Source of the DNA: Escherichia phage p000y
Sequence record: MK047718.1
Strand: one strand, 5' to 3'
Length of the DNA stretch: 64,000 nt
Part shown: positions 17,353 through 39,406 of the stretch, piece by piece
Position numbering within the stretch: the first letter of the stretch is position 1
Layout: each line of letters begins with the position of its first letter
Notes under the pieces: generated by a model
Seen by the model: the letters and a program-made list of their open reading frames with translations, nothing else
The model's database searches: none
What the model was told of the DNA's origin: nothing
Program-made: the position numbers and the translations under genes

Positions 17353-17425
17353 TGGGAATTAGCCAAGTTGGTAAGGCACTGGATTTTGATTCCAGGATGC
17401 AAAGGTTCGAGTCCTTTATTCCCAG
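17353..17425 (+). tRNA. tRNA-Gln (anticodon UUG)
   Basis: Manual cloverleaf: acceptor TGGGAAT/ATTCCCA, anticodon loop TTTTGAT, T-arm AAAGG-TTCGAGT-CCTTT. Confidence 0.8.
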
Positions 17426-17426
17426 C

Positions 17427-17513
17427 GCGAGAATGGCCAAATTGGTAAAGGCACAGCACTTAAAATGCTGCGGAATGATTTCCTTGTGGGTTCGAGTCCC
17501 ACTTCTCGCACCA
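17427..17513 (+). tRNA. tRNA-Leu (anticodon UAA), long variable arm, CCA encoded
   Basis: Acceptor GCGAGAA/TTCTCGC, anticodon loop CTTAAAA, T-loop TTCGAGT. Confidence 0.8.
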
Positions 17514-17518
17514 AATTT

Positions 17519-17592
<74 letters not shown>

Positions 17593-17602
17593 ATTTAATT
17601 TA

Positions 17603-17676
17603 CTCCGTGTAGCTCAGTTTGGTAGAGCGCCTGATTTGGGATCAGGAGGTCCAAGGTTCAAATCCTTGTATGGAGA
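17603..17676 (+). tRNA. tRNA-Pro (anticodon UGG)
   Basis: Acceptor CTCCGTG/TATGGAG with G-U pairs, anticodon loop TTTGGGA, T-loop TTCAAAT. Confidence 0.75.
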
Positions 17677-17678
17677 CT

Positions 17679-17768
17679 GGAGGCGTGGCAGAGTGGTTTA
17701 ATGCACCGGTCTTGAAAACCGGCAGTCGCTCCGGCGACTCATAGGTTCAAATCCTATCGCCTCCGCCA
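17679..17768 (+). tRNA. tRNA-Ser (anticodon UGA), long variable arm, CCA encoded
   Basis: Acceptor GGAGGCG/CGCCTCC, anticodon loop CTTGAAA, T-loop TTCAAAT. Confidence 0.8.
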
Positions 17769-17773
17769 ATTTT

Positions 17774-17849
17774 GCTGATTTAGCTCAGTAGGTAGAGCAA
17801 CTCACTTGTAATGAGAAGGTCGGCGGTTCGATTCCGTCAATCAGCACCA
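17774..17849 (+). tRNA. tRNA-Thr (anticodon UGU), CCA encoded
   Basis: Acceptor GCTGATT/AATCAGC, anticodon loop CTTGTAA, T-loop TTCGATT. Confidence 0.8.
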
Positions 17850-17850
17850 A

Positions 17851-17925
17851 GGCCCTGTAGCTGGAAGGTTCAAGCAAGCGACTCATAATCGCCAGATGGT
17901 GGTTCAATTCCACCCAGGGCCACCA
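17851..17925 (+). tRNA. tRNA with anticodon CAU (Ile lysidine-type as in T4, or Met), CCA encoded
   Basis: Acceptor GGCCCTG/CAGGGCC, anticodon loop CTCATAA, T-loop TTCAATT. Confidence 0.7.
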
Positions 17926-17937
17926 AATTATGAATTA

Positions 17938-18024
17938 GGGGAGTTATCCCGTAGAGGTAGCGGTGTGGACTGTAAATCCATTGTCATTGCGACTCGGGTG
18001 GTTCGACTCCATCACTCCCAACCA
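17938..18024 (+). tRNA. tRNA-Tyr (anticodon GUA), long variable arm, CCA encoded
   Basis: Anticodon stem GTGGA/TCCAT with loop CTGTAAA, T-loop TTCGACT; acceptor has G-A at pair 1-72, so ends are approximate. Confidence 0.65.
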
Positions 18025-18028
18025 ATTT

Positions 18029-18103
18029 GGATGTGTAGCTCAATGGCAGAGCGATCGCCTGTTAAGCGATTGGTTATAGGTTCGAATCCTATCACGTCCG
18101 CCA
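18029..18103 (+). tRNA. tRNA-Asn (anticodon GUU), CCA encoded
   Basis: Acceptor GGATGTG/CACGTCC, anticodon stem ATCGC/GCGAT with loop CTGTTAA, T-loop TTCGAAT. Confidence 0.75.
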
Positions 18104-18107
18104 AATA

Positions 18108-18184
<77 letters not shown>

Positions 18185-21233: not shown

Positions 21234-21836
21234 ATGCGAAACCAAAATAATGATATTGACTCAATGTTCGAAGAGTTCCGAGATAAGGTAAATCCACCTA
21301 CGTCTTTAGTTGATTCATTACGATATGTTGCAACTGGACGTAAATGGTACTGGTCGTCTTCTTATGAGACTACTGAGAAAACGGCTAGCCATAGCAGAAA
21401 ATCTTTATTAGCCCCAGGTATTATGATTCATGATATCGGAGCTATTGCTAAACTAGTTGCAGACCATGATATTAGATTCACTGATTTCGTTGCTCCTACG
21501 TGGTCTGTTTGTTGTTTAAACACTGAATGGGAATATATCAGCGAACGCTCTGAAGATTATTATGGTTTTAGAGATAAGCTTTTAAGGTCTAACATGTTTT
21601 ATATCGATACTGAAGTTCTAGTCGATAATAAAAAATATTACTTTACGTTAATCATCGATTCCGAAACTATGTATGAAGGCAAGCCTTTGCTTAAAAGAGT
21701 TGATGCTTTAAGTGCTATTGATGCGCTTTATGAAACTATGGTTGTTAGTCCTAATTTCACTAACAATTTAATCCTTGAGCAATTTATTATGGAATGTAGA
21801 GAATATGTCAAAGCCAACCCTATACATGCCAAGTAA
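21234..21836 (+). CDS. hypothetical protein ending in FIMECR motif
   Basis: ATG 21234 with AAGGAG SD (track ORF begins at TTG 21213). Confidence 0.65.
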   Translation: MRNQNNDIDSMFEEFRDKVNPPTSLVDSLRYVATGRKWYWSSSYETTEKTASHSRKSLLAPGIMIHDIGAIAKLVADHDIRFTDFVAPTWSVCCLNTEWEYISERSEDYYGFRDKLLRSNMFYIDTEVLVDNKKYYFTLIIDSETMYEGKPLLKRVDALSAIDALYETMVVSPNFTNNLILEQFIMECREYVKANPIHAK

Positions 21837-22200
21837 GCCCTGGGCGTATGAATACAAGCGTAAATTAATCCCAAATGAAGTACTATTTGGCCCTATTTTA
21901 GCTTTAGCATTTTTAATCTTTATGATTATAGGAGCTGTTTTAGATTCTAGTGAAGTTATATCGTCTGATGCAGCATTTTCATTAATGTTCGTCGCACCAC
22001 TTATTGTACCGTTTTTATTAATGCCTATTAATTGGGTAGGATATTGGCACCAAGGCCGTCATCACAGAGCCCGATTAAGAGAATGGAAAGTTCAGTGCGC
22101 AAAAGCCCAAGCTCGGTATGATGAAGCTGTTAAAAAGTATGAATATGAAGAAGCTATGGAATTCGTTAAGGAAATAAGATGCAAAAGCCTCAACTCTTAA
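21805..22200 (+). CDS. membrane protein, hypothetical
   Basis: Hydrophobic segments; start uncertain (21805 or 21826), overlaps upstream gene. Confidence 0.5.
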   Translation: MSKPTLYMPSKPWAYEYKRKLIPNEVLFGPILALAFLIFMIIGAVLDSSEVISSDAAFSLMFVAPLIVPFLLMPINWVGYWHQGRHHRARLREWKVQCAKAQARYDEAVKKYEYEEAMEFVKEIRCKSLNS

Positions 22201-22538
22201 CCGTATGGCCTTCTCTTGGTGAGAACATTCTAATTTTTATTATGAGTATTGGCATGGGATTTGCCTTTGGATTAGTTGGATTTCTTATTGACGGCGTTGT
22301 GTTAGGATTTATAGGGAACACTGGTGGATTCACAGACCAATGGCAGGACTTACGGTATACCCAAGCCTTTGCATCCATCGCATCATTTTGTACTGTAGTC
22401 TATTTTTACTACGATTTTATAAACCACAACAAGAAAAATAAAAAGGTTTACGCTTCTCAAATGATTAGTTATAATGAACTCCTAGCTAGACGTGAAAATG
22501 AAACAATAGAAAACTTTATTAAGGAATGTAGAAAATGA
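22179..22538 (+). CDS. membrane protein with C-terminal FIKECR motif
   Basis: 119-aa ORF, two hydrophobic helices. Confidence 0.6.
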   Translation: MQKPQLLTVWPSLGENILIFIMSIGMGFAFGLVGFLIDGVVLGFIGNTGGFTDQWQDLRYTQAFASIASFCTVVYFYYDFINHNKKNKKVYASQMISYNELLARRENETIENFIKECRK

Positions 22539-22840
22539 GTAAGATTATTGAAATTAAAGTACCAGAGTTTAATGATGCCAAATCCGCTTCAGATGCAATT
22601 TATAAACTTCTGAATCAAGCTGAACGTATCGAAGAAGAAGCAACAAAGATCGCAGACCAATATGCAGTATCGTTTTCTGTAGGTGATTATGGTAGCGGTC
22701 GTACTTATTATCCTAAGGGTGAAATCGTATCCCAGTGGATGAAAGATGAAATTGAAAATAATGGCGGCGATGTTAAGCGTGAAGGTAATGGATACGTTAT
22801 TACTGAAGGTGCTTGGGTTTCGTCTTCTGCGTTGTGCTAA
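22535..22840 (+). CDS. tandem paralog 1 of 3, C-terminal WVSSSALC
   Basis: 101-aa ORF; shares C-terminal motif and junction sequence with the next two genes. Confidence 0.65.
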   Translation: MSKIIEIKVPEFNDAKSASDAIYKLLNQAERIEEEATKIADQYAVSFSVGDYGSGRTYYPKGEIVSQWMKDEIENNGGDVKREGNGYVITEGAWVSSSALC

Positions 22841-22849
22841 GGAATCATT

Positions 22850-23122
22850 ATGTCTAAAGAACAAACCGAACTGGCTGAAGCTGTAGCAAAAATCTATGCA
22901 GCTATTGAGGCTGCCAAAGAAATTGCTGATAAACAAAACACAACATTCAACTTGTACCCAGCTTATGGTATGGGTGGAACCTATCATTCACCCGGACATC
23001 TTAAAGCCGATCTTGAACGTTGTACAAAAAACGGCTATGCTGAATGGGCTGACGTTTACCAATACGACTACAACCTGAGCCTCGAAACCGGTGGTTGGGT
23101 CGCATCTTCTCACACTTGCTAA
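22850..23122 (+). CDS. tandem paralog 2 of 3, C-terminal WVASSHTC
   Basis: 90-aa ORF. Confidence 0.65.
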   Translation: MSKEQTELAEAVAKIYAAIEAAKEIADKQNTTFNLYPAYGMGGTYHSPGHLKADLERCTKNGYAEWADVYQYDYNLSLETGGWVASSHTC

Positions 23123-23131
23123 GGAAACAAT

Positions 23132-23329
23132 ATGTCTCGTGAATTAGATTGTGCTGTACGTACGGCAGTAGCTGCTCTGGAAAACCTGTTCCAAATTGCA
23201 ACAGAAGAACGCGAAGAAGTTACATTATGGATTGAAGATAACGCAGGTCTGAATCTCCAGGACGCGATCTCATTATCCCACAATAGTATTACTGTTCAAG
23301 GCTGGGTATCATCTAGTTATTCTTGCTAA
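23132..23329 (+). CDS. tandem paralog 3 of 3, C-terminal WVSSSYSC
   Basis: 65-aa ORF. Confidence 0.6.
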   Translation: MSRELDCAVRTAVAALENLFQIATEEREEVTLWIEDNAGLNLQDAISLSHNSITVQGWVSSSYSC

Positions 23330-23334
23330 AACAG

Positions 23335-23363
23335 TTTACAACAAGATAGGGCTATGTTATAGT
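23335..23363 (+). promoter_or_regulatory. early promoter cassette (TTTACA, 17 nt, TATAGT)
   Basis: Same cassette type as 16331. Confidence 0.55.
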
Positions 23364-23391
23364 AGTCCTATCAAATTAAATGGAGTCCACA

Positions 23392-23631
23392 ATGATTTAT
23401 TACGAAAGTATCGGAACTGAAGTAGTTGCTAAAACTATTAGTCGTGAAAAGTTTGCAAAGATATTCGATATGCGTTATAAAAAATCTGAACATAAAGGCA
23501 TCCGATTCGAAGATGCGCACTGTACAATTTGCCCTTATAATGAAGACATAAACGGTACAATCGTTCCATTGGTAGAGGCTTCACATGTTGACCTCTGGGA
23601 TGAATATAATATCGCATGTCGTGAAATTTAA
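23392..23631 (+). CDS. hypothetical protein
   Basis: ATG 23392 after GGAG SD (track ORF 23380). Confidence 0.55.
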   Translation: MIYYESIGTEVVAKTISREKFAKIFDMRYKKSEHKGIRFEDAHCTICPYNEDINGTIVPLVEASHVDLWDEYNIACREI

Positions 23632-23659: not shown

Positions 23660-24616
23660 ATGATGTTAGTTATTGGTTCTCGTGCACTTCACTATCACGG
23701 TCTTATTGATTCTAGCGCTATTAAAAATAGTGATTGGGACTTTATTGCGGATCAATGTTCTTGGAATGCATTCAAAAATCAAATGATGGGTGTATATGTT
23801 CACCAAGATAACCCTGATGTCCAAGTTTTCAAATGCTTCCATAATGGACGCGAAACTCATTTTGAAGCATATATTGTTCCGGCAATCACTAATGTCCGTG
23901 AATTAGTCGGTGAACTCACTCCTGAAGATTTCACGTCTTCTTATGACCTTTTAAAATACGCCAAGAAAAATTTGACTAAAGACCGTTTGAACGGGTTTTA
24001 CTGGGCAACTCCCGAGATATGTCTTGCAATTAAGATGTCTCATCGTTTCAAGAAAAATAATCCATTCTTTTTAAAGACTATGAATCATATTCAGTATCTT
24101 CGTGGTAAAGGTGTTACACTGAACGATGAACTTACTGAAATTATGCTGAAACGCCAGAAAGAAACCTTGAATTATGCTCACCCAGTTCTTGACACTTCTA
24201 AAAGTGCGTTCTTTAAAGATGACATCTATACATATGACCATGATACTATTCATGAAGCCATTGCACTAACTGACCAGCCTGCTTATAAGTTTTATATGAA
24301 AGAAGGCTCAGAAGTTATGACATCACGCGAGAAGTTCGAATCATTACCAGAAATGGTTAAATTAGCCGGTGTATATGAAGAAGCTTGTGTATTAGCTCTT
24401 GAACGTTCACAGATTCCTAACGACTTTAAAATCCATCCACGTGATAGTTTTATGATGGCCCTTGAAAAGGTCTGTACATCAATCACATCAGGATGGTTCC
24501 GTGAGTTCGCTTGGGAAAATTATAGCAAAGTAGTAAGTATGTACCAAAGCTTAGGACACGACGATTACGTCAAGCGTTTCAAACAAAACTTTCATATGGT
24601 AAAACCTTTCAAATAA
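23660..24616 (+). CDS. predicted nucleotidyltransferase-fold protein (Pol-beta superfamily motif GS...SDxD)
   Basis: 318 aa; N-terminal VIGSRALHYHG...SDWDF fits the minimal NTase motif hG[GS]x(9-13)Dh[DE]. Confidence 0.55.
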   Translation: MMLVIGSRALHYHGLIDSSAIKNSDWDFIADQCSWNAFKNQMMGVYVHQDNPDVQVFKCFHNGRETHFEAYIVPAITNVRELVGELTPEDFTSSYDLLKYAKKNLTKDRLNGFYWATPEICLAIKMSHRFKKNNPFFLKTMNHIQYLRGKGVTLNDELTEIMLKRQKETLNYAHPVLDTSKSAFFKDDIYTYDHDTIHEAIALTDQPAYKFYMKEGSEVMTSREKFESLPEMVKLAGVYEEACVLALERSQIPNDFKIHPRDSFMMALEKVCTSITSGWFREFAWENYSKVVSMYQSLGHDDYVKRFKQNFHMVKPFK

Positions 24617-24629
24617 TTTCACAAAACAG

Positions 24630-24658
24630 TTTACAAGGTCTGTAGTTGTTGATACTAT
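24630..24658 (+). promoter_or_regulatory. early promoter cassette (TTTACA, 17 nt, TACTAT)
   Basis: Read from sequence. Confidence 0.55.
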
Positions 24659-24696
24659 AGACCTATCAAAACAAATGAGTGAATGGAGATATAAAA

Positions 24697-24955: not shown

Positions 24956-25261
24956 ATGAAATTAGGCGAAACCAACCGAATTGGTCTTTTAACAATATTT
25001 GCATCACCTTTTTACGCAGCTCTTTCTGTTGCAGTATTACAAAAGGCTTACGATATGGATGGTGTTCCTGGTTTTGTATTCTTATCGCCGTTTTTGCTAT
25101 TCGTTGGAGCATTGTTATTATATGCCACGACTAGTTTCGACCATAATGTCTGGGTTAATTATAAATGTAAATTGTCTGAAGAAGAACATGCAGAAGCTCG
25201 TAAAAAAGCTATTGAATCTACCAATCTAGAAAATTTCATTAAAGAATGTCGAGGAAAATAA
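24956..25261 (+). CDS. membrane protein with C-terminal FIKECR motif
   Basis: 101 aa, two hydrophobic helices, GAGGAG SD. Confidence 0.65.
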   Translation: MKLGETNRIGLLTIFASPFYAALSVAVLQKAYDMDGVPGFVFLSPFLLFVGALLLYATTSFDHNVWVNYKCKLSEEEHAEARKKAIESTNLENFIKECRGK

Positions 25262-25262
25262 T

Positions 25263-25949
25263 ATGAATAGTTCTAAAACTTTTAATAGTCAAGCTCGTGC
25301 AGTTGGTAGTTTTGCACATAACGTACAAAATGACCGAATCAAAAATGAACCAATGTTCTTTAATTGTGATTTGGGTTTTGCTTGGGATAATGGTGGCTCA
25401 ATCACTCGTAGCTTTATTGCCAATCTCCCAATTGATTGGACTAATCAACATGTTGTATTTGATTCTCGGGTTCATATGCTGATGCCTGGTTGGTATCCTG
25501 CTATTCCTGGATACCACCATGACGATGTTCCTCGCCCTGATATTCCAGTTGGTCAACACTTTATTACTGCAGGACAACCTGACTATGACAACCCTCGTTA
25601 CCATTCTGAACATATTCTTGGTCTTGTTAACGCTGACGTGTGTCCTACTCATTTTGCAACAGGAACTGCAGAGTTCAGTCAGATTCCTGATGGCGAACTT
25701 ATCTATCGCCAGTGGCACAAAGAAGTCCTCGAAAAAATTGAAAAAGGTGAACTAGAGAAATGGGAAGCTCCAGATCGTACTCTTCTTCAGTTTGATTGGC
25801 AAACATGGCACACTGGTTCTCGTGCAATTAGTAATGGATGGCGTTGGTTCGGACGTGTATCTCGTAATACAGACCGAGTTAAAAAGATTACCAATGAAAT
25901 TCGTGTCAATGCTCAAGTTTATCTGGAATTCCCTATGGAAGGCTGGTAA
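25263..25949 (+). CDS. hypothetical protein
   Basis: 228-aa ORF. Confidence 0.65.
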   Translation: MNSSKTFNSQARAVGSFAHNVQNDRIKNEPMFFNCDLGFAWDNGGSITRSFIANLPIDWTNQHVVFDSRVHMLMPGWYPAIPGYHHDDVPRPDIPVGQHFITAGQPDYDNPRYHSEHILGLVNADVCPTHFATGTAEFSQIPDGELIYRQWHKEVLEKIEKGELEKWEAPDRTLLQFDWQTWHTGSRAISNGWRWFGRVSRNTDRVKKITNEIRVNAQVYLEFPMEGW

Positions 25950-26440
25950 TGATTAACAAAACATATTGGTCTAATATAGACGATGGCAATGAAGGTATTT
26001 CATACTATTCAGTAGATTGGACAGGATGTCCATCCTACTTAGTGAAACATATTTGCCAAGAATTTAAAATCGACCAGCCAGCAGGTATTATCGTGAACAG
26101 ATACATTAATGGATATCAACCTATCGATGAAGTAATACGAACAACTCAAGCTGAGCTTGAAAAGTTTTTCAATAAGTGCCAATGGATAACAGGATGGATT
26201 ATATTTGTACCGTCGGTATGGTTTTTTAGTACTAAGGTGAGTTCTTTCGGTTTTGTTGATATTATTGCTATCTTATTAGCATCTACTATCGTAAGTATTA
26301 TTGGTGGTATTATTGGTGGAGGTACTGTAGGCATCATTATTAATCTTGTTAAAAGTAGTTTACAGGAACGTAAAGACAAGATAAAGGCCAAGAATAATGA
26401 AGTTGAACGTTTTATTACCGAATGCAGGAATTTGAGATGA
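25949..26440 (+). CDS. membrane protein with C-terminal FITECR motif
   Basis: 163 aa, hydrophobic core with G-rich helix. Confidence 0.65.
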   Translation: MINKTYWSNIDDGNEGISYYSVDWTGCPSYLVKHICQEFKIDQPAGIIVNRYINGYQPIDEVIRTTQAELEKFFNKCQWITGWIIFVPSVWFFSTKVSSFGFVDIIAILLASTIVSIIGGIIGGGTVGIIINLVKSSLQERKDKIKAKNNEVERFITECRNLR

Positions 26441-36549: not shown

Positions 36550-37023
36550 ATGATTATCAATGAAAACTCTTGGCACTTTAAAATTTATGCCACGTTTAAT
36601 AGTACATGGAATCGTCCGAAAACGTTGTGTGCTTATTTTTGGAAAACGCTAATCCCGGTATTGGCTGCTTCAATTATTGGATTTGCGATTTTAGCAGCAG
36701 TCACAATCATTGGTCAGGAAATTTTAACTAAATTCTTTGTTTTTAGCAGTCTATGGACATTAGTTCCAGCTTCAATTGGTATAGGCATTTTAACAATATC
36801 AGTAATGGTTCTTATTGCTGTCGGGGCGGTAATTGGTCCATCTTGGTTATTAGACAAATATAACGACAGAAAATATTATAAAGAAATTGAGCTCATTGCA
36901 CAAAACCAAGAACGAATTAAAAATGGACTTGAGCCTATTGAACGTAAGAAATCATTAATAGGTGAATACATTAAAGCTCGTAAAGAAAAAGTCTGTCCTA
37001 CTCTTGAATATAAGGCTAAATGA
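36550..37023 (+). CDS. membrane protein, hypothetical
   Basis: 157 aa with multiple hydrophobic helices. Confidence 0.65.
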   Translation: MIINENSWHFKIYATFNSTWNRPKTLCAYFWKTLIPVLAASIIGFAILAAVTIIGQEILTKFFVFSSLWTLVPASIGIGILTISVMVLIAVGAVIGPSWLLDKYNDRKYYKEIELIAQNQERIKNGLEPIERKKSLIGEYIKARKEKVCPTLEYKAK

Positions 37024-38009
37024 TGAAAACAATTATGAAAGGCTACTTTGGTAGCCACCTTTATGGAACGTCTACTCCTGAATCTGACGTCGATTTTAAA
37101 GAAATTTATGTCCCTCATGCTCGTGATATCTTGACCGGTAACGTTAAAGAACACATGAGCAAGAACACTAACAACACTGCTTCTAAGAACACAAAAGACG
37201 ACGTGGACCATGAGTTGTATAGTCTCAAATATTTCTTTAAACTAGCTGCAGATGGTGAAACCGTCGCATTAGATATGCTTCACACCCCACAAAGTCTAGT
37301 AGTTAAATCTGATTTGCCTGATGTATGGAAGTATATTCAAGATAACAGGTCTCGTTTCTATACCACTAACATGAAATCTTATTTAGGGTATGTCCGTAAG
37401 CAAGCTTCTAAATATGGTGTCAAGGGTTCTCGACTGGCTGTTCTTCGTCAAGCCCTTAAACGTTCTAATGAATGGGGACAATACTTTGATAATGGTGCAG
37501 TAATTCGTTTATCACATATGAAGAACGTTCTGCCTGTAGGTGAATTTGCTTCATGGGTTGAAACCGAAAACGAGAAAACAGGTAAGCAAACATTCTATAA
37601 TCTGTTGGACCGTAAATTCCAAGACACGTTAACCAATAAAGAGTTCAATGCCATCCTGGTTAAACTGGAAGAGAACTATGGTGAACGTGCTCGTAAGGCG
37701 GAAGCCAACGAAGGTATTGACTGGAAAGCATTGAGTCATGCATGTCGTGGTGGACTTCAACTATTGGAAATTTATAAAACCGGTGACTTGGTTTACCCAC
37801 TTCAGGATGCTCCATTTATTCTCGATGTTAAGCTTGGTAAACATACGTTTAAAACTGTACAAGAATTCCTAGAAGATATTGTTGACCAAGTTGAACATGC
37901 GTCAGAACAAGCTGCCAAGAATGGTATGCAACAAAAAGTAGATATGAGTTTCTGGGATGATTTCCTTGAGCAAGTCTATCTCGAAAATCATAATTCTTAC
38001 TATAAATAA
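37020..38009 (+). CDS. predicted nucleotidyltransferase-fold protein (GS...SDVDF motif)
   Basis: 329 aa; N-terminal YFGSHLYGTSTPESDVDF fits the Pol-beta-type NTase motif. Confidence 0.6.
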   Translation: MMKTIMKGYFGSHLYGTSTPESDVDFKEIYVPHARDILTGNVKEHMSKNTNNTASKNTKDDVDHELYSLKYFFKLAADGETVALDMLHTPQSLVVKSDLPDVWKYIQDNRSRFYTTNMKSYLGYVRKQASKYGVKGSRLAVLRQALKRSNEWGQYFDNGAVIRLSHMKNVLPVGEFASWVETENEKTGKQTFYNLLDRKFQDTLTNKEFNAILVKLEENYGERARKAEANEGIDWKALSHACRGGLQLLEIYKTGDLVYPLQDAPFILDVKLGKHTFKTVQEFLEDIVDQVEHASEQAAKNGMQQKVDMSFWDDFLEQVYLENHNSYYK

Positions 38010-38387: not shown

Positions 38388-38425
38388 AGACCTATCGAAA
38401 CGAAATGAGTAAATTGGAGAATAAA

Positions 38426-39406
38426 ATGTTCAACGTTCAAATCAAAAAAGGTATCTATCGTAATAACGAAATCTCTGGATCTTATGTCGCCACAAAGACA
38501 TGGTTCCCAGCAAAGCTTAATCCTGAATGTTCCCACTTAGGTGATGGTAAAATTTTCGTTATGATTGATGGTTCTGAACGTGGAGTATGGGTCTTCAAAT
38601 CAGACATCGTAATGGAAGGAGTTGAGACATCACCAGTTGCAGTTGTTGAAAGCACTGAAGATATGAAAACTCGTATCAACAAACGCTTTAAAGTAATGAA
38701 CATGATGACGAATGGCATTATCGATGGCAAAATTCGTTCACTCATCATTTCAGGTGCAGCCGGTATTGGTAAGACGTATTCTCTGGATAAAGCACTTAAT
38801 AATGCTAATGATAATGGTTTCATCAAATACAAAAGCATTAATGGTAAAATCTCTGGTATCGGCCTTTACGAACAACTTTGGCTCAACCGTGATGCAGACA
38901 GCGTTCTCTTAATCGACGATGTTGATGTATTCTCTGATATGGATATCTTGAACCTTCTTAAAGCAGCATTAGATACCGGAGATAAACGCAAAGTTTGTTG
39001 GAGCACTGCGTCATCTTATCTTGATGATAAGGGTATTGATAAAGAATTTGAGTTTGAAGGTACTATCGTTTTCATTACAAACGTTGATATCGATAAAGAG
39101 TTAGAACGTGGTTCGAAACTTGCCCCACACCTTCAAGCTTTAGTATCTCGTTCAGTGTATCTCGACCTTGGAGTACACTCTAATGAAGAGATTATGGTTC
39201 GAGTTGAAGACGTAATATTATCTACTGACATGATGCAGAAACGTGGTCTGACTGATGCTGAAACGTACAAAGCATTGTCCTGGATGAAGGCTAACGTATC
39301 TCGTCTTCGCAATGTATCATTACGTACGGCTCTTTATGTAGCAGATTTTATTTCAACTGATAAAGATGGTTGGGAGGAAATCTCCGAAGTAACTTTACTG
39401 AAATAA
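38426..39406 (+). CDS. P-loop ATPase (AAA-like), hypothetical
   Basis: Walker A SGAAGIGKTYS and Walker B LLIDDVD; ATG 38426 inside track ORF 38405. Confidence 0.65.
   Translation: MFNVQIKKGIYRNNEISGSYVATKTWFPAKLNPECSHLGDGKIFVMIDGSERGVWVFKSDIVMEGVETSPVAVVESTEDMKTRINKRFKVMNMMTNGIIDGKIRSLIISGAAGIGKTYSLDKALNNANDNGFIKYKSINGKISGIGLYEQLWLNRDADSVLLIDDVDVFSDMDILNLLKAALDTGDKRKVCWSTASSYLDDKGIDKEFEFEGTIVFITNVDIDKELERGSKLAPHLQALVSRSVYLDLGVHSNEEIMVRVEDVILSTDMMQKRGLTDAETYKALSWMKANVSRLRNVSLRTALYVADFISTDKDGWEEISEVTLLK

What the first reader, a model, noticed from the sequence alone, without database searches (positions are those of the whole stretch)
23660..24616. Nucleotidyltransferase-fold protein of unknown function in the hyperplastic early region
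A 318-aa protein starts with VIGSRALHYHG...SDWDF, the minimal Pol-beta-superfamily NTase signature (G-S, then D-x-D/E). I do not recall a T4 protein with this motif at this position. Such folds in phages include signal-modifying enzymes, tRNA-end repair enzymes and anti-defence nucleotide transferases. A second protein with the same N-terminal architecture is at 37020.
Basis: inference. Interest (0 to 1): 0.6.

Follow-up and report, generated by a model that had tools for sequence, protein, structure and literature searches.

The report
Phage nucleotidyltransferase paired with tail-tagged proteins
The flagged gene very probably encodes an active nucleotide-transferring enzyme of an uncharacterised, phage-only family, and in most phages that carry it, it sits just downstream of one to five small acidic proteins that all end in the same W-x-S-S-S-x-x-C tail, which suggests an undescribed enzyme-plus-partner module.

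Summary
The ORF is real: 23660..24616, + strand, 318 aa, beginning MMLVIGSRAL...SDWDF. The window is an RB69-like Mosigvirus. The gene lies between e.3-like and e.2-like genes that are adjacent in T4, and T4 has no homologue.

The protein is Pfam DUF7277 + DUF7275 and PHROG 2141, found in 734 phage records and essentially only in phages. Its very conserved C-terminal helical domain has no solved structural relative. The 37020 protein is the T4 NrdC.11 orthologue (RlaP family), related only at superfamily level.

New here: 73 of 80 related phage loci (45 of 52 diverse ones) carry 1-5 same-strand small acidic ORFs just upstream, ending G-x-W-x-S-S-S-x-x-C. In the window these are 22535-23329.

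My best guess, which is inferred and not shown, is that the enzyme nucleotidylates this tail. Rival readings are a MenT-like RNA-end NTase with small inhibitors, or a small-molecule NTase.

The parts
22535..22840 (+). Small acidic tail-tagged protein 1 (101 aa, ends ...GAWVSSSALC; PHROG 899)
   Evidence: family HMM E 1.5e-27
22850..23122 (+). Small acidic tail-tagged protein 2 (90 aa, central YGMGGTY, ends ...GGWVASSHTC; PHROG 899; RB69ORF137c homologue)
   Evidence: E 1.6e-21
23132..23329 (+). Small tail-tagged protein 3 (65 aa, ends ...QGWVSSSYSC; PHROG 4882)
   Evidence: E 3e-10. The three tails also appear as a 3 x 30-nt direct repeat, family D1
23328..23385 (+). PeSL-like early promoter cassette (TTTACA-N17-TATAGT at 23335-23363, overlapping a stem-loop that is annotated as a terminator in SA79RD)
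   Evidence: (D15)
23380..23631 (+). 83-aa ORF (PHROG 3723, contains C-x-x-C). It sits between the array and the enzyme and is probably co-transcribed with the enzyme. It is clade-specific and not conserved with the module elsewhere
23660..24616 (+). Target gene: NTase-DUF7275 enzyme, 318 aa (PHROG 2141; RB69ORF134c homologue)
23660..23989 (+). N-terminal minimal Pol-beta NTase domain (aa 1-110; Pfam DUF7277 covers aa 2-101; G6 S7 D25 D27 E69; clade-specific insert at aa 74-92)
24017..24574 (+). C-terminal all-helical domain DUF7275 (aa 120-305). It carries K125-x6-K132, which resembles AbiEii/MenT motif III. Invariant residues are H128, K139, T140, H194, D195, H198, E240, E241, E248, R249, G278 and R281. 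C272 is near-invariant
24621..24680 (+). Second PeSL-like early promoter cassette (TTTACA-N17-TACTAT at 24630-24658) that closes the gene cassette
   Evidence: (D15)

Best explanation
The ORF encodes a catalytically competent, Mg2+-dependent Pol-beta-superfamily nucleotidyltransferase. A minimal N-terminal NTase core supplies G6-S7, D25, D27 and E69. It is fused to a phage-specific helical domain (DUF7275), which supplies an AbiEii/MenT-like NTP-binding lysine motif (K125-x6-K132) and an invariant His/Asp/Glu/Arg cluster. The gene is expressed early and stands alone, but it is the enzyme half of a conserved two-part phage module. The other half is the tandem array of small acidic proteins encoded just upstream (22535-23329), which are very diverse in their body but all end in G-x-W-x-[S/A]-S-S-x-x-C. 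I think the most likely mechanism is this: DUF7275 docks that tail in the active-site cleft, and the enzyme transfers a nucleotidyl group (or a nucleotide-linked group) from an NTP to the invariant tail serine. This would mark or mature several phage effector proteins with one enzyme. What is shown: the fold, the conserved catalytic residues, the family's distribution and the genomic coupling. What is inferred: enzymatic activity (about 0.85), functional coupling to the tail proteins (about 0.8), and the tail as substrate (about 0.4-0.45).

For: Catalytic residues are conserved in 126 representatives sharing at most 50% identity. K125 is 126/126 and position 132 is K/R in 125/126, with the same K-x6-R spacing as AbiEii motif III, KLxAaxxR. 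The sequence distances D25 to K125 (100 residues) and K125 to position 143 (18 residues) resemble MenT1 D41 to K137 (96) and K137 to D152 (15).

Coupling: BLAST clustering of neighbouring ORFs found one small-protein family in 50 of 58 de-replicated loci, while the next most frequent neighbour family occurs in 15 of 58. By motif, 73 of 80 loci have at least one upstream tail ORF, and 179 of 185 motif ORFs lie on the same strand within 4 kb upstream, with a median gap of 374 bp. In the 52 diverse loci, 45 have one; 85 of 90 motif ORFs fall in a zone that holds 9.1% of ORFs (binomial 7e-82, not corrected for relatedness among loci). Ten of 11 further long-form loci from GenBank phages and MAG contigs also have them.

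Specificity: in the window, 3 of 968 ORFs carry the motif and all three are in the array. T4 has 0 of 2382 and no enzyme.

The bodies of the small proteins are very diverse (mean column identity 19%) while the tail is fixed, and copy number ranges from 1 to 5. That pattern fits a shared recognition or modification tag. The small proteins are acidic (median pI 4.4), while the enzyme keeps many invariant basic residues.
Against: The closest structural relatives act on tRNA 3' ends (MenT) or on small molecules (ANT, Lnu), not on proteins. Short-form relatives keep GS / R-x-P-K-D-x-D plus DUF7275 but have no tail proteins: 0 of 3 short-form loci and 0 of 1982 ORFs across the Gordonia phage JonJames genome. 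The enzyme core can therefore work without them. Seven of 80 long-form loci lack an upstream tail ORF. In the window, a promoter/terminator element and an unrelated 83-aa ORF separate the array from the enzyme. Pol-beta NTases that modify protein serines are rare; the precedent, CitX/MdcG, is recalled from memory and was not tested here.
Confidence: 0.4

Rival explanations
1. It is a MenT/AbiEii-like RNA-end nucleotidyltransferase. The enzyme would add nucleotides to tRNA (or other RNA) 3' ends, either to shut off or retune host translation or to repair and mature tRNA. The upstream small proteins would be antitoxin-like inhibitors or regulators whose tail plugs the active site, in the way the small MenA1 protein encoded upstream of MenT1 blocks that toxin.
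Against: The Pfam AbiEii HMM matches only 1 of 126 members, at E 0.021, and does not match the window protein. PADLOC gives no hit. The enzyme family's pI is about 6.2, which is not basic. tRNA genes are not enriched near the gene outside the syntenic enterobacterial T-even clade: 4 of 52 loci have one within 10 kb. One to five divergent 'antitoxins', often separated from the enzyme by other ORFs and by promoter or terminator signals, is unlike a toxin-antitoxin operon. The window protein lacks the motif II Arg, and in its clade position 143 is H rather than D. The Ser/Thr two residues before the first Asp, which is the regulatory phospho-site in MenT, is mostly Pro (58 of 126).
Confidence: 0.25
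2. It is a small-molecule or nucleotide-directed NTase. It would be like ANT(2'') or Lnu (O-nucleotidylation of a metabolite or an anti-phage compound), or it would modify a nucleotide signal as an anti-defence measure. The small proteins would then be adaptors or functionally separate effectors.
Against: This reading does not explain the near-universal upstream tail-protein array. There is no sequence match to any antibiotic-NTase family. The extra conserved region of about 170 aa has no counterpart in ANT or Lnu.
Confidence: 0.15
3. The link to the tail proteins is inherited gene order only and has no functional meaning.
For: Within the enterobacterial T-even clade the whole region is syntenic. 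The binomial test ignores relatedness among loci.
Against: Outside that clade the surrounding genes are not conserved: the next-best neighbour family occurs in 15 of 58 loci against 50 of 58 for the tail family. The array nevertheless stays upstream on the same strand in Aeromonas, Acinetobacter and Pseudomonas phages, in jumbo-phage contigs and in MAG contigs. Both families are absent together from T4.
Confidence: 0.07

Closest known systems
MenT1/MenT3/MenT4 and AbiEii (DUF1814, Pfam PF08843) nucleotidyltransferase toxins
   Different: The target does not reach the Pfam AbiEii model. It carries about 170 extra, very conserved residues with no structural relative. It is found only in phages and is not part of a defence or toxin-antitoxin locus. 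The window protein lacks the motif II Arg and has H143. The upstream small proteins are multi-copy, share a C-terminal tag and belong to no known antitoxin family.
ANT(2'')-Ia (AadB) and LnuA antibiotic nucleotidyltransferases; JHP933; TM1012
   Different: There is no detectable sequence similarity. They are about half the size, and they lack both DUF7275 and partner proteins.
T4 NrdC.11 / RlaP family (PF10127): the protein at 37020..38009 in this window
   Same: It is also a Pol-beta NTase with an N-terminal GS...DxD, encoded in a variable early region of the same phage.
   Different: It belongs to a different family: BLASTP E 5.7 and hhalign probability 0.1%. It is present in T4, it has a canonical 10-residue spacer, and it is paired with the NrdC.10 ATPase-like gene rather than with tail-tagged proteins.
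CitX / MdcG holo-ACP synthases (EC 2.7.7.61/66). This is a functional analogy recalled from memory
   Same: They are NTase-class enzymes that transfer a nucleotide-derived group onto a serine of a small acidic helical protein, which is what I propose here. One family member gave a sub-threshold hit to the MdcG Pfam model (E 0.062).
   Different: No significant sequence or structural relationship was shown. The acceptor serine in those carrier proteins is internal, not in a C-terminal W-x-S-S-S-x-x-C tag.

Membership tests
Pol-beta nucleotidyltransferase superfamily | hG[GS] turn between strand 1 and helix 1 | tested here: met
   I5-G6-S7. G is present in 125/126 and S in 122/126 representatives. 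The model places strand 2-5 and helix 7-12 on either side.
Pol-beta nucleotidyltransferase superfamily | [DE]h[DE]h on the second strand, plus a third carboxylate on a later strand | tested here: met
   D25 123/126 (plus 2 E) and D27 125/126, both on strand 26-31. The third acidic position is acidic in 126/126 and corresponds to window E69 on strand 64-73, matched by eye because MAFFT misaligns the window sequence there.
Pol-beta nucleotidyltransferase superfamily | alpha/beta NTase fold | tested here: met
DUF1814 / AbiEii / MenT toxins | Match to the family model (Pfam PF08843, PADLOC AbiE) | tested here: not met
   The window protein gives no hit at E <= 1. One of 126 relatives matches, at E 0.021.
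DUF1814 / AbiEii / MenT toxins | Motif II arginine upstream of DhD | tested here: inconclusive
   R is present in 96 of 126 family members, but the window protein has A20/K22 there.
DUF1814 / AbiEii / MenT toxins | Motif III KLxAaxxR and motif IV +DxxD | tested here: inconclusive
   K125-x6-[KR]132 is invariant and has the right spacing. A single acidic residue (D143, 118/126; H in this clade) stands where +DxxD would be, so there is no exact pentad. The correspondence rests on sequence spacing only, not on a structural superposition.
DUF1814 / AbiEii / MenT toxins | Cognate antitoxin (AbiEi, MenA) and growth-inhibiting toxicity | not testable with these tools
   The upstream small proteins match no known family. 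Toxicity needs an experiment.
Pfam DUF7277 + DUF7275 / PHROG 2141 | HMM matches above the curated cut-off over the whole protein | tested here: met
   DUF7277 E 1.3e-27 (aa 2-101), DUF7275 E 9e-79 (aa 120-305), PHROG 2141 E 4e-149.
RlaP / T4 NrdC.11 NTases (family of the 37020 protein) | Pfam PF10127 match or detectable homology to the 37020 protein | tested here: not met
   The target gives no PF10127 hit. BLASTP E 5.7. hhalign probability 0.1%.
HD-domain phosphohydrolase (considered for the C-domain because of H128...H194-D195...H198) | HD fold | tested here: not met
tRNA-maturation or tRNA-repair gene sets | Consistent linkage to phage tRNA genes or RNA-repair genes | tested here: not met
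   tRNA genes lie within 10 kb in only 4 of 52 diverse loci. Linkage is seen only in the syntenic T-even clade.

The most novel reading that the evidence does not exclude
The enzyme and the tail-tagged proteins form a phage-encoded post-translational maturation pathway that has not been described. The NTase core would nucleotidylate the invariant serine of the W-x-S-S-S-x-x-C tag on several small acidic proteins. The invariant His/Asp/Glu/Cys site of DUF7275 would then carry out a second step, such as elimination, ring formation with the terminal cysteine, or installation of a nucleotide-derived prosthetic group. One enzyme would thereby activate a family of diverse early effector proteins, in a way comparable to RiPP maturation or carrier-protein activation.
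Probability: 0.2. Interest if true: 0.85.

Novelty: new variant of a known kind. Interest (0 to 1): 0.62.

Why it matters
The family is large: 734 phage records and about 1,200 clusters at 50% identity. It is restricted to phages and is very conserved across phages of unrelated hosts, including therapy-relevant RB69-like coliphages and Klebsiella, Acinetobacter, Aeromonas and Pseudomonas phages. Yet it has no assigned function and I found no literature on it. Its nearest structural relatives are the bacterial abortive-infection and toxin NTases (AbiEii, MenT), so phages carry a diverged relative of a fold that bacteria use in abortive-infection and toxin systems. The tight coupling to arrays of small proteins with a fixed C-terminal tag points to a concrete, cheaply testable hypothesis: enzyme plus tagged substrates or regulators. 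If the tag is modified, this would be a new viral protein-modification system, and the tag could be used to find the relevant effector proteins in phage genomes.

Tried and rejected
1. Sequence searches for a known family: NCBIfam, PADLOC, and PDB by single sequence and by profile gave nothing significant.

3. Paralogy with the 37020 protein: rejected. That protein is the NrdC.11 orthologue.

4. A hidden T4 homologue: none was found by tblastn or by HMM over the whole genome. The small-protein HMM gives one marginal T4 hit (E 8.5e-4, 15 bits) in an ORF that lacks the tail; by my own coordinate arithmetic it lies near tk.1/tk.2, and I did not verify this.

5. Linkage to tRNA genes as a clue to a tRNA substrate: not supported outside the T-even clade.

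6. The immediately flanking 83-aa and 72-aa ORFs as partners: they are not conserved in other genera.

7. A third conserved component: other neighbour families occur in at most 15 of 58 loci and are ordinary early genes, such as a metallophosphatase, glutaredoxin, Nrd and ligase; these identities are my reading of the sequences.

8. Annotation of the small proteins: no Pfam family and no solved relative. The hits to AcrIIC4, designed helical bundles and Nif11 are all sub-threshold. The large-database profile search returned only 38 hypothetical phage proteins and no domain fusions.

9. Bacterial homologues: 8 loci among 185,579 species genomes, all on MAG contigs.

10. A profile-profile comparison with DUF1814 could not be made because I could not obtain seed sequences; plasmid pNP40 is not in the collection.

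11. Literature searches for the DUF and PHROG identifiers, gene names and motifs found nothing relevant.

Full report
**Observation.** The ORF is exactly as described: 23660..24616, + strand, 318 aa, beginning MMLVIGSRALHYHGLIDSSAIKNSDWDFIAD. A GAGG ribosome-binding site lies 8 nt upstream. The window is 97-99% identical to RB69-like Mosigvirus genomes such as vB_EcoM_NBG1 and SA79RD. In those records the same CDS is annotated as a hypothetical protein similar to RB69ORF134c. It lies between an e.3-like ORF (22179..22538) and an e.2-like ORF (25949..26440), upstream of nudE and e. In T4, e.3 and e.2 are adjacent. A tblastn search and a family-HMM search over the whole T4 genome find no homologue (best E 0.14 and 0.23). 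T4-early-type promoter elements flank the 83-aa ORF plus the target: TTTACA-N17-TATAGT at 23335-23363 and TTTACA-N17-TACTAT at 24630-24658. Both share a ...CCTATCAAA...AAATG tail. They resemble the PeSL promoter/stem-loop cassettes reported to bracket shuffled genes in the hyperplastic regions of T4-like phages, whose consensus for the T4 type is TTTACW-N17-TAYWAT (PMC4122927). 'Early, hyperplastic region, absent from T4' is therefore right.

**Is the motif more than chance?** Yes, because of its conservation. The family is large. There are 2,117 proteins with E <= 1e-3 in the 90%-clustered database and 1,239 representatives in the 50%-clustered library. Phage GenBank records with a match number 734: T4-like phages of Enterobacteria, Aeromonas and Acinetobacter, rV5-like phages, Otagovirus, Stenotrophomonas phages, jumbo phages, and, with only the C-terminal part of the query aligning, Streptomyces, Gordonia and Vibrio phages. 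In 126 representatives sharing at most 50% identity the counts are G6 125/126, S7 122/126, D25 123/126 (plus 2 E) and D27 125/126. A strand with consensus I-I-E-F-E-I-A is acidic in 126/126 at the position I match by eye to window E69; MAFFT misplaces the window sequence there because of a Mosigvirus-specific insert at residues 74-92. All three carboxylates and the GS turn of a Pol-beta NTase are therefore under selection. This argues for an active enzyme.

Foldseek gives the same kinds of hits at marginal E-values. At sequence level the protein matches only Pfam DUF7277 (aa 2-101) and DUF7275 (aa 120-305), and PHROG 2141, all of unknown function. NCBIfam, PADLOC and PDB sequence searches are empty. 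A few relatives give sub-threshold hits to other NTase families: DUF4269, DUF6036, AbiEii and MdcG. Some GenBank records already call homologues 'putative nucleotidyltransferase'.

**Relation to MenT/AbiEii.** The AbiEii paper defines the family by four features. These are hG[GS]; DhD after an unusually long spacer (15 residues); a family-specific Arg in motif II; and motifs III (KLxAaxxR) and IV (+DxxD) (PMC3985639). The active site of MenT1 is T39, D41, D43, K137 and D152 (PMC10435456). In the target the spacer is 17 residues. K125 is invariant, and position 132 is K or R in 125/126, which is the K-x6-R spacing of motif III. An acidic residue follows 18 residues later (D143 in 118/126, but H in the T-even clade). 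An Arg upstream of the first Asp is present in 96/126 members but not in the window protein. The protein therefore looks like a distant structural relative of DUF1814. It fails the family's sequence model, so I do not file it there.

Short-form relatives of about 250-260 aa occur in Streptomyces, Gordonia and Vibrio phages. They keep the N-terminal hhVGS...R-x-P-K-D-x-D element and the C-domain core (K125, H128, H194-D195, H198, E240-E241, E248-R249). They lack most of the central sheet and have Thr in place of C272. The GS/DxD element and DUF7275 always travel together, which suggests a single composite active site.

**The second protein.** ORF 37020..38009 is the orthologue of T4 NrdC.11 (77% identity). 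Its downstream neighbour at 38405..39406 is the NrdC.10 orthologue. It belongs to Pfam RlaP and to PHROG 388, 'nucleotidyltransferase'. It shows no detectable similarity to the target: BLASTP E 5.7, and hhalign pairs only the DxD octet, at 0.1% probability. The superfamily is the same but the family is different.

**Context: the unexpected result.** The genes around homologues differ between phage genera, and the 83-aa and 72-aa ORFs that flank the target are not conserved with it. I fetched 80 related loci from IMG/VR and clustered all same-strand neighbouring ORFs. One small-protein family stood out. It is present in 50 of 58 de-replicated loci, while the next most frequent family is present in 15. 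Its members are 52-207 aa (median 92) and acidic (median pI 4.4). Their bodies are very divergent (mean column identity 19%). Nearly all end in G-x-W-x-[S/A]-S-S-x-x-C followed by the stop codon. Minor variants are W-x-S-S-x-C and W-x-S-S-S-C, and some proteins carry a second, internal copy of the motif. Many also have a central YG(M)GG(T)Y motif.

Counting by motif gives the following:

- All 80 loci: 73 have 1-5 such ORFs. Of 185 motif ORFs among 25,813 ORFs, 179 lie on the enzyme's strand and end within 4 kb upstream. The median gap from the nearest one to the enzyme is 374 bp.
- The 52 diverse loci (enzyme best-segment identity about 39-61% to the window's): 45 have one. Of 90 motif ORFs, 85 fall in a zone that holds 9.1% of ORFs. 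The binomial probability is 7e-82, which is indicative only because the loci are related.
- Further long-form loci: 10 of 11 have them, including Aeromonas phage 31, Acinetobacter phage Octan, Pseudomonas phage REC and MAG contigs.

In the window, the family is the tandem trio 22535..22840 (...GAWVSSSALC), 22850..23122 (...GGWVASSHTC) and 23132..23329 (...QGWVSSSYSC). These are the only 3 of 968 ORFs that carry the motif, and the only ORFs matched by the family HMM. The repeat finder also picks up their tails as a 3 x 30-nt direct repeat. T4 has none among 2,382 ORFs and also lacks the enzyme. Detectable homologues of the second small protein occur in 280 phage records; those listed belong to clades that also carry the enzyme, and none is a Tequatrovirus. 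The small proteins have no Pfam family, only PHROG 899 and 4882 (both of unknown function), no solved relative and no domain fusions. I found no literature on either family. The three short-form loci have no tail ORFs, and the first 100,000 of the 100,446 bases of the Gordonia phage JonJames genome have 0 among 1,982 ORFs.

**Mechanism.** Three things are shown: an NTase fold with intact catalytic residues, a unique conserved helical domain, and a strong, orientation-specific genomic coupling to tail-tagged small proteins. What follows is inferred. A fixed tag on otherwise divergent, multi-copy proteins beside a very conserved enzyme is the pattern expected for a shared modification or recognition signal. 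I therefore favour nucleotidyl transfer to the invariant tail serine, with DUF7275 acting as the tag-binding and second-site module (confidence about 0.4).

The main rival takes the MenT resemblance at face value: an RNA 3'-end NTase whose small upstream proteins act as inhibitors, as MenA1 does for MenT1 (about 0.25). Several observations count against it. The family's pI is neutral (6.2). tRNA genes are not linked to it outside the T-even clade (4 of 52 loci). The copy number of the small proteins varies and their placement relative to the enzyme is loose. A small-molecule or nucleotide substrate, as for ANT and Lnu, remains possible (about 0.15), and the tail-less short forms are a point in its favour. 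Pure synteny is unlikely (about 0.07).

**Novelty and verdict.** The protein belongs to a catalogued but uncharacterised phage-only family: only 8 hits among 185,579 species genomes, all on MAG contigs. It is a new variant within the NTase superfamily and structurally nearest to the AbiEii/MenT toxins. The coupling to W-x-S-S-S-x-x-C proteins appears to be unreported, and it turns 'NTase of unknown function' into a specific hypothesis that can be tested at the bench.

Noticed in passing
window 21775-22200, 22179-22538, 24956-25261, 25949-26440: Four ORFs in the e.2/e.3/e.4-like region have hydrophobic, membrane-protein-like sequences and end in a shared C-terminal motif, F-[IV]-x-E-[CI]-R (...EFVKEIRCKSLNS, ...NFIKECRK, ...NFIKECRGK, ...RFITECRNLR). 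The repeat finder also detects the motif as short DNA repeats (D3, D10). This is a second family of proteins with a shared tail in the same region.
   Followed up: no
window 17353-18184: There is a cluster of 10 tRNA genes (Gln, Leu, Gly, Pro, Ser, Thr, Met, Tyr, Asn, Arg). The close relative SA79RD has only 2 at this position. tRNA-Gln and tRNA-Pro lack an encoded 3' CCA and abut the next tRNA, as in the T4 dimeric precursors (the T4 comparison is recalled from memory).
   Followed up: partly
window 37020-38009 and 38405-39406: These are orthologues of T4 NrdC.11 (RlaP-family NTase, 77% identity) and NrdC.10 (77% identity; the sequence contains a P-loop-like GAAGIGKT motif). They form a conserved pair that is unrelated to the target.
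   Followed up: partly
window 23328-23385 and 24621-24680: Two similar intergenic cassettes (AAAACAGTTTACAA...TATAGT or TACTAT...CCTATCAAA...AAATG) bracket the 83-aa ORF plus the target. They look like PeSL promoter/stem-loop shuffling elements. SA79RD annotates terminators at the corresponding places.
   Followed up: partly
window 23380-23631: An 83-aa ORF (PHROG 3723) with a C-x-x-C plus His/Cys pattern (AHCTICPYNED...ACREI) lies between the tail-protein array and the enzyme. It is present only in close relatives.
   Followed up: partly
window 25263-25949: A 228-aa ORF lies between the enzyme cassette and the e.2-like gene. It gave no tblastn hit in the T4 40-90 kb segment that holds the syntenic region, and it was not characterised.
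   Followed up: no
L017:2378-3133, L018:2318-3100, L019:2324-3109: These are short-form relatives (251-261 aa) in a Streptomyces, a Gordonia and a Vibrio phage. They keep GS...R-x-P-K-D-x-D and the DUF7275 core. They lack most of the NTase sheet, have Thr in place of C272, and are not accompanied by tail-tagged proteins. Their neighbours include an RNA ligase (Streptomyces), tRNA genes (Gordonia) and a nicotinamide phosphoribosyltransferase (Vibrio).
   Followed up: partly
L006:8544-12208: On a 75-kb contig binned as a Thermosynechococcus MAG, ARAGORN predicts a tmRNA-like gene and 12 tRNA genes about 2 kb downstream of the enzyme homologue. The contig is probably from a phage.
   Followed up: no
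L063:9155-9391 and L002 (about 2730-2959): Some small partner proteins carry the tag twice, once internally (DW[QL]SS[AS]C) and once at the C-terminus (VW[YM]SSSC). The motif therefore need not be strictly C-terminal.
   Followed up: no
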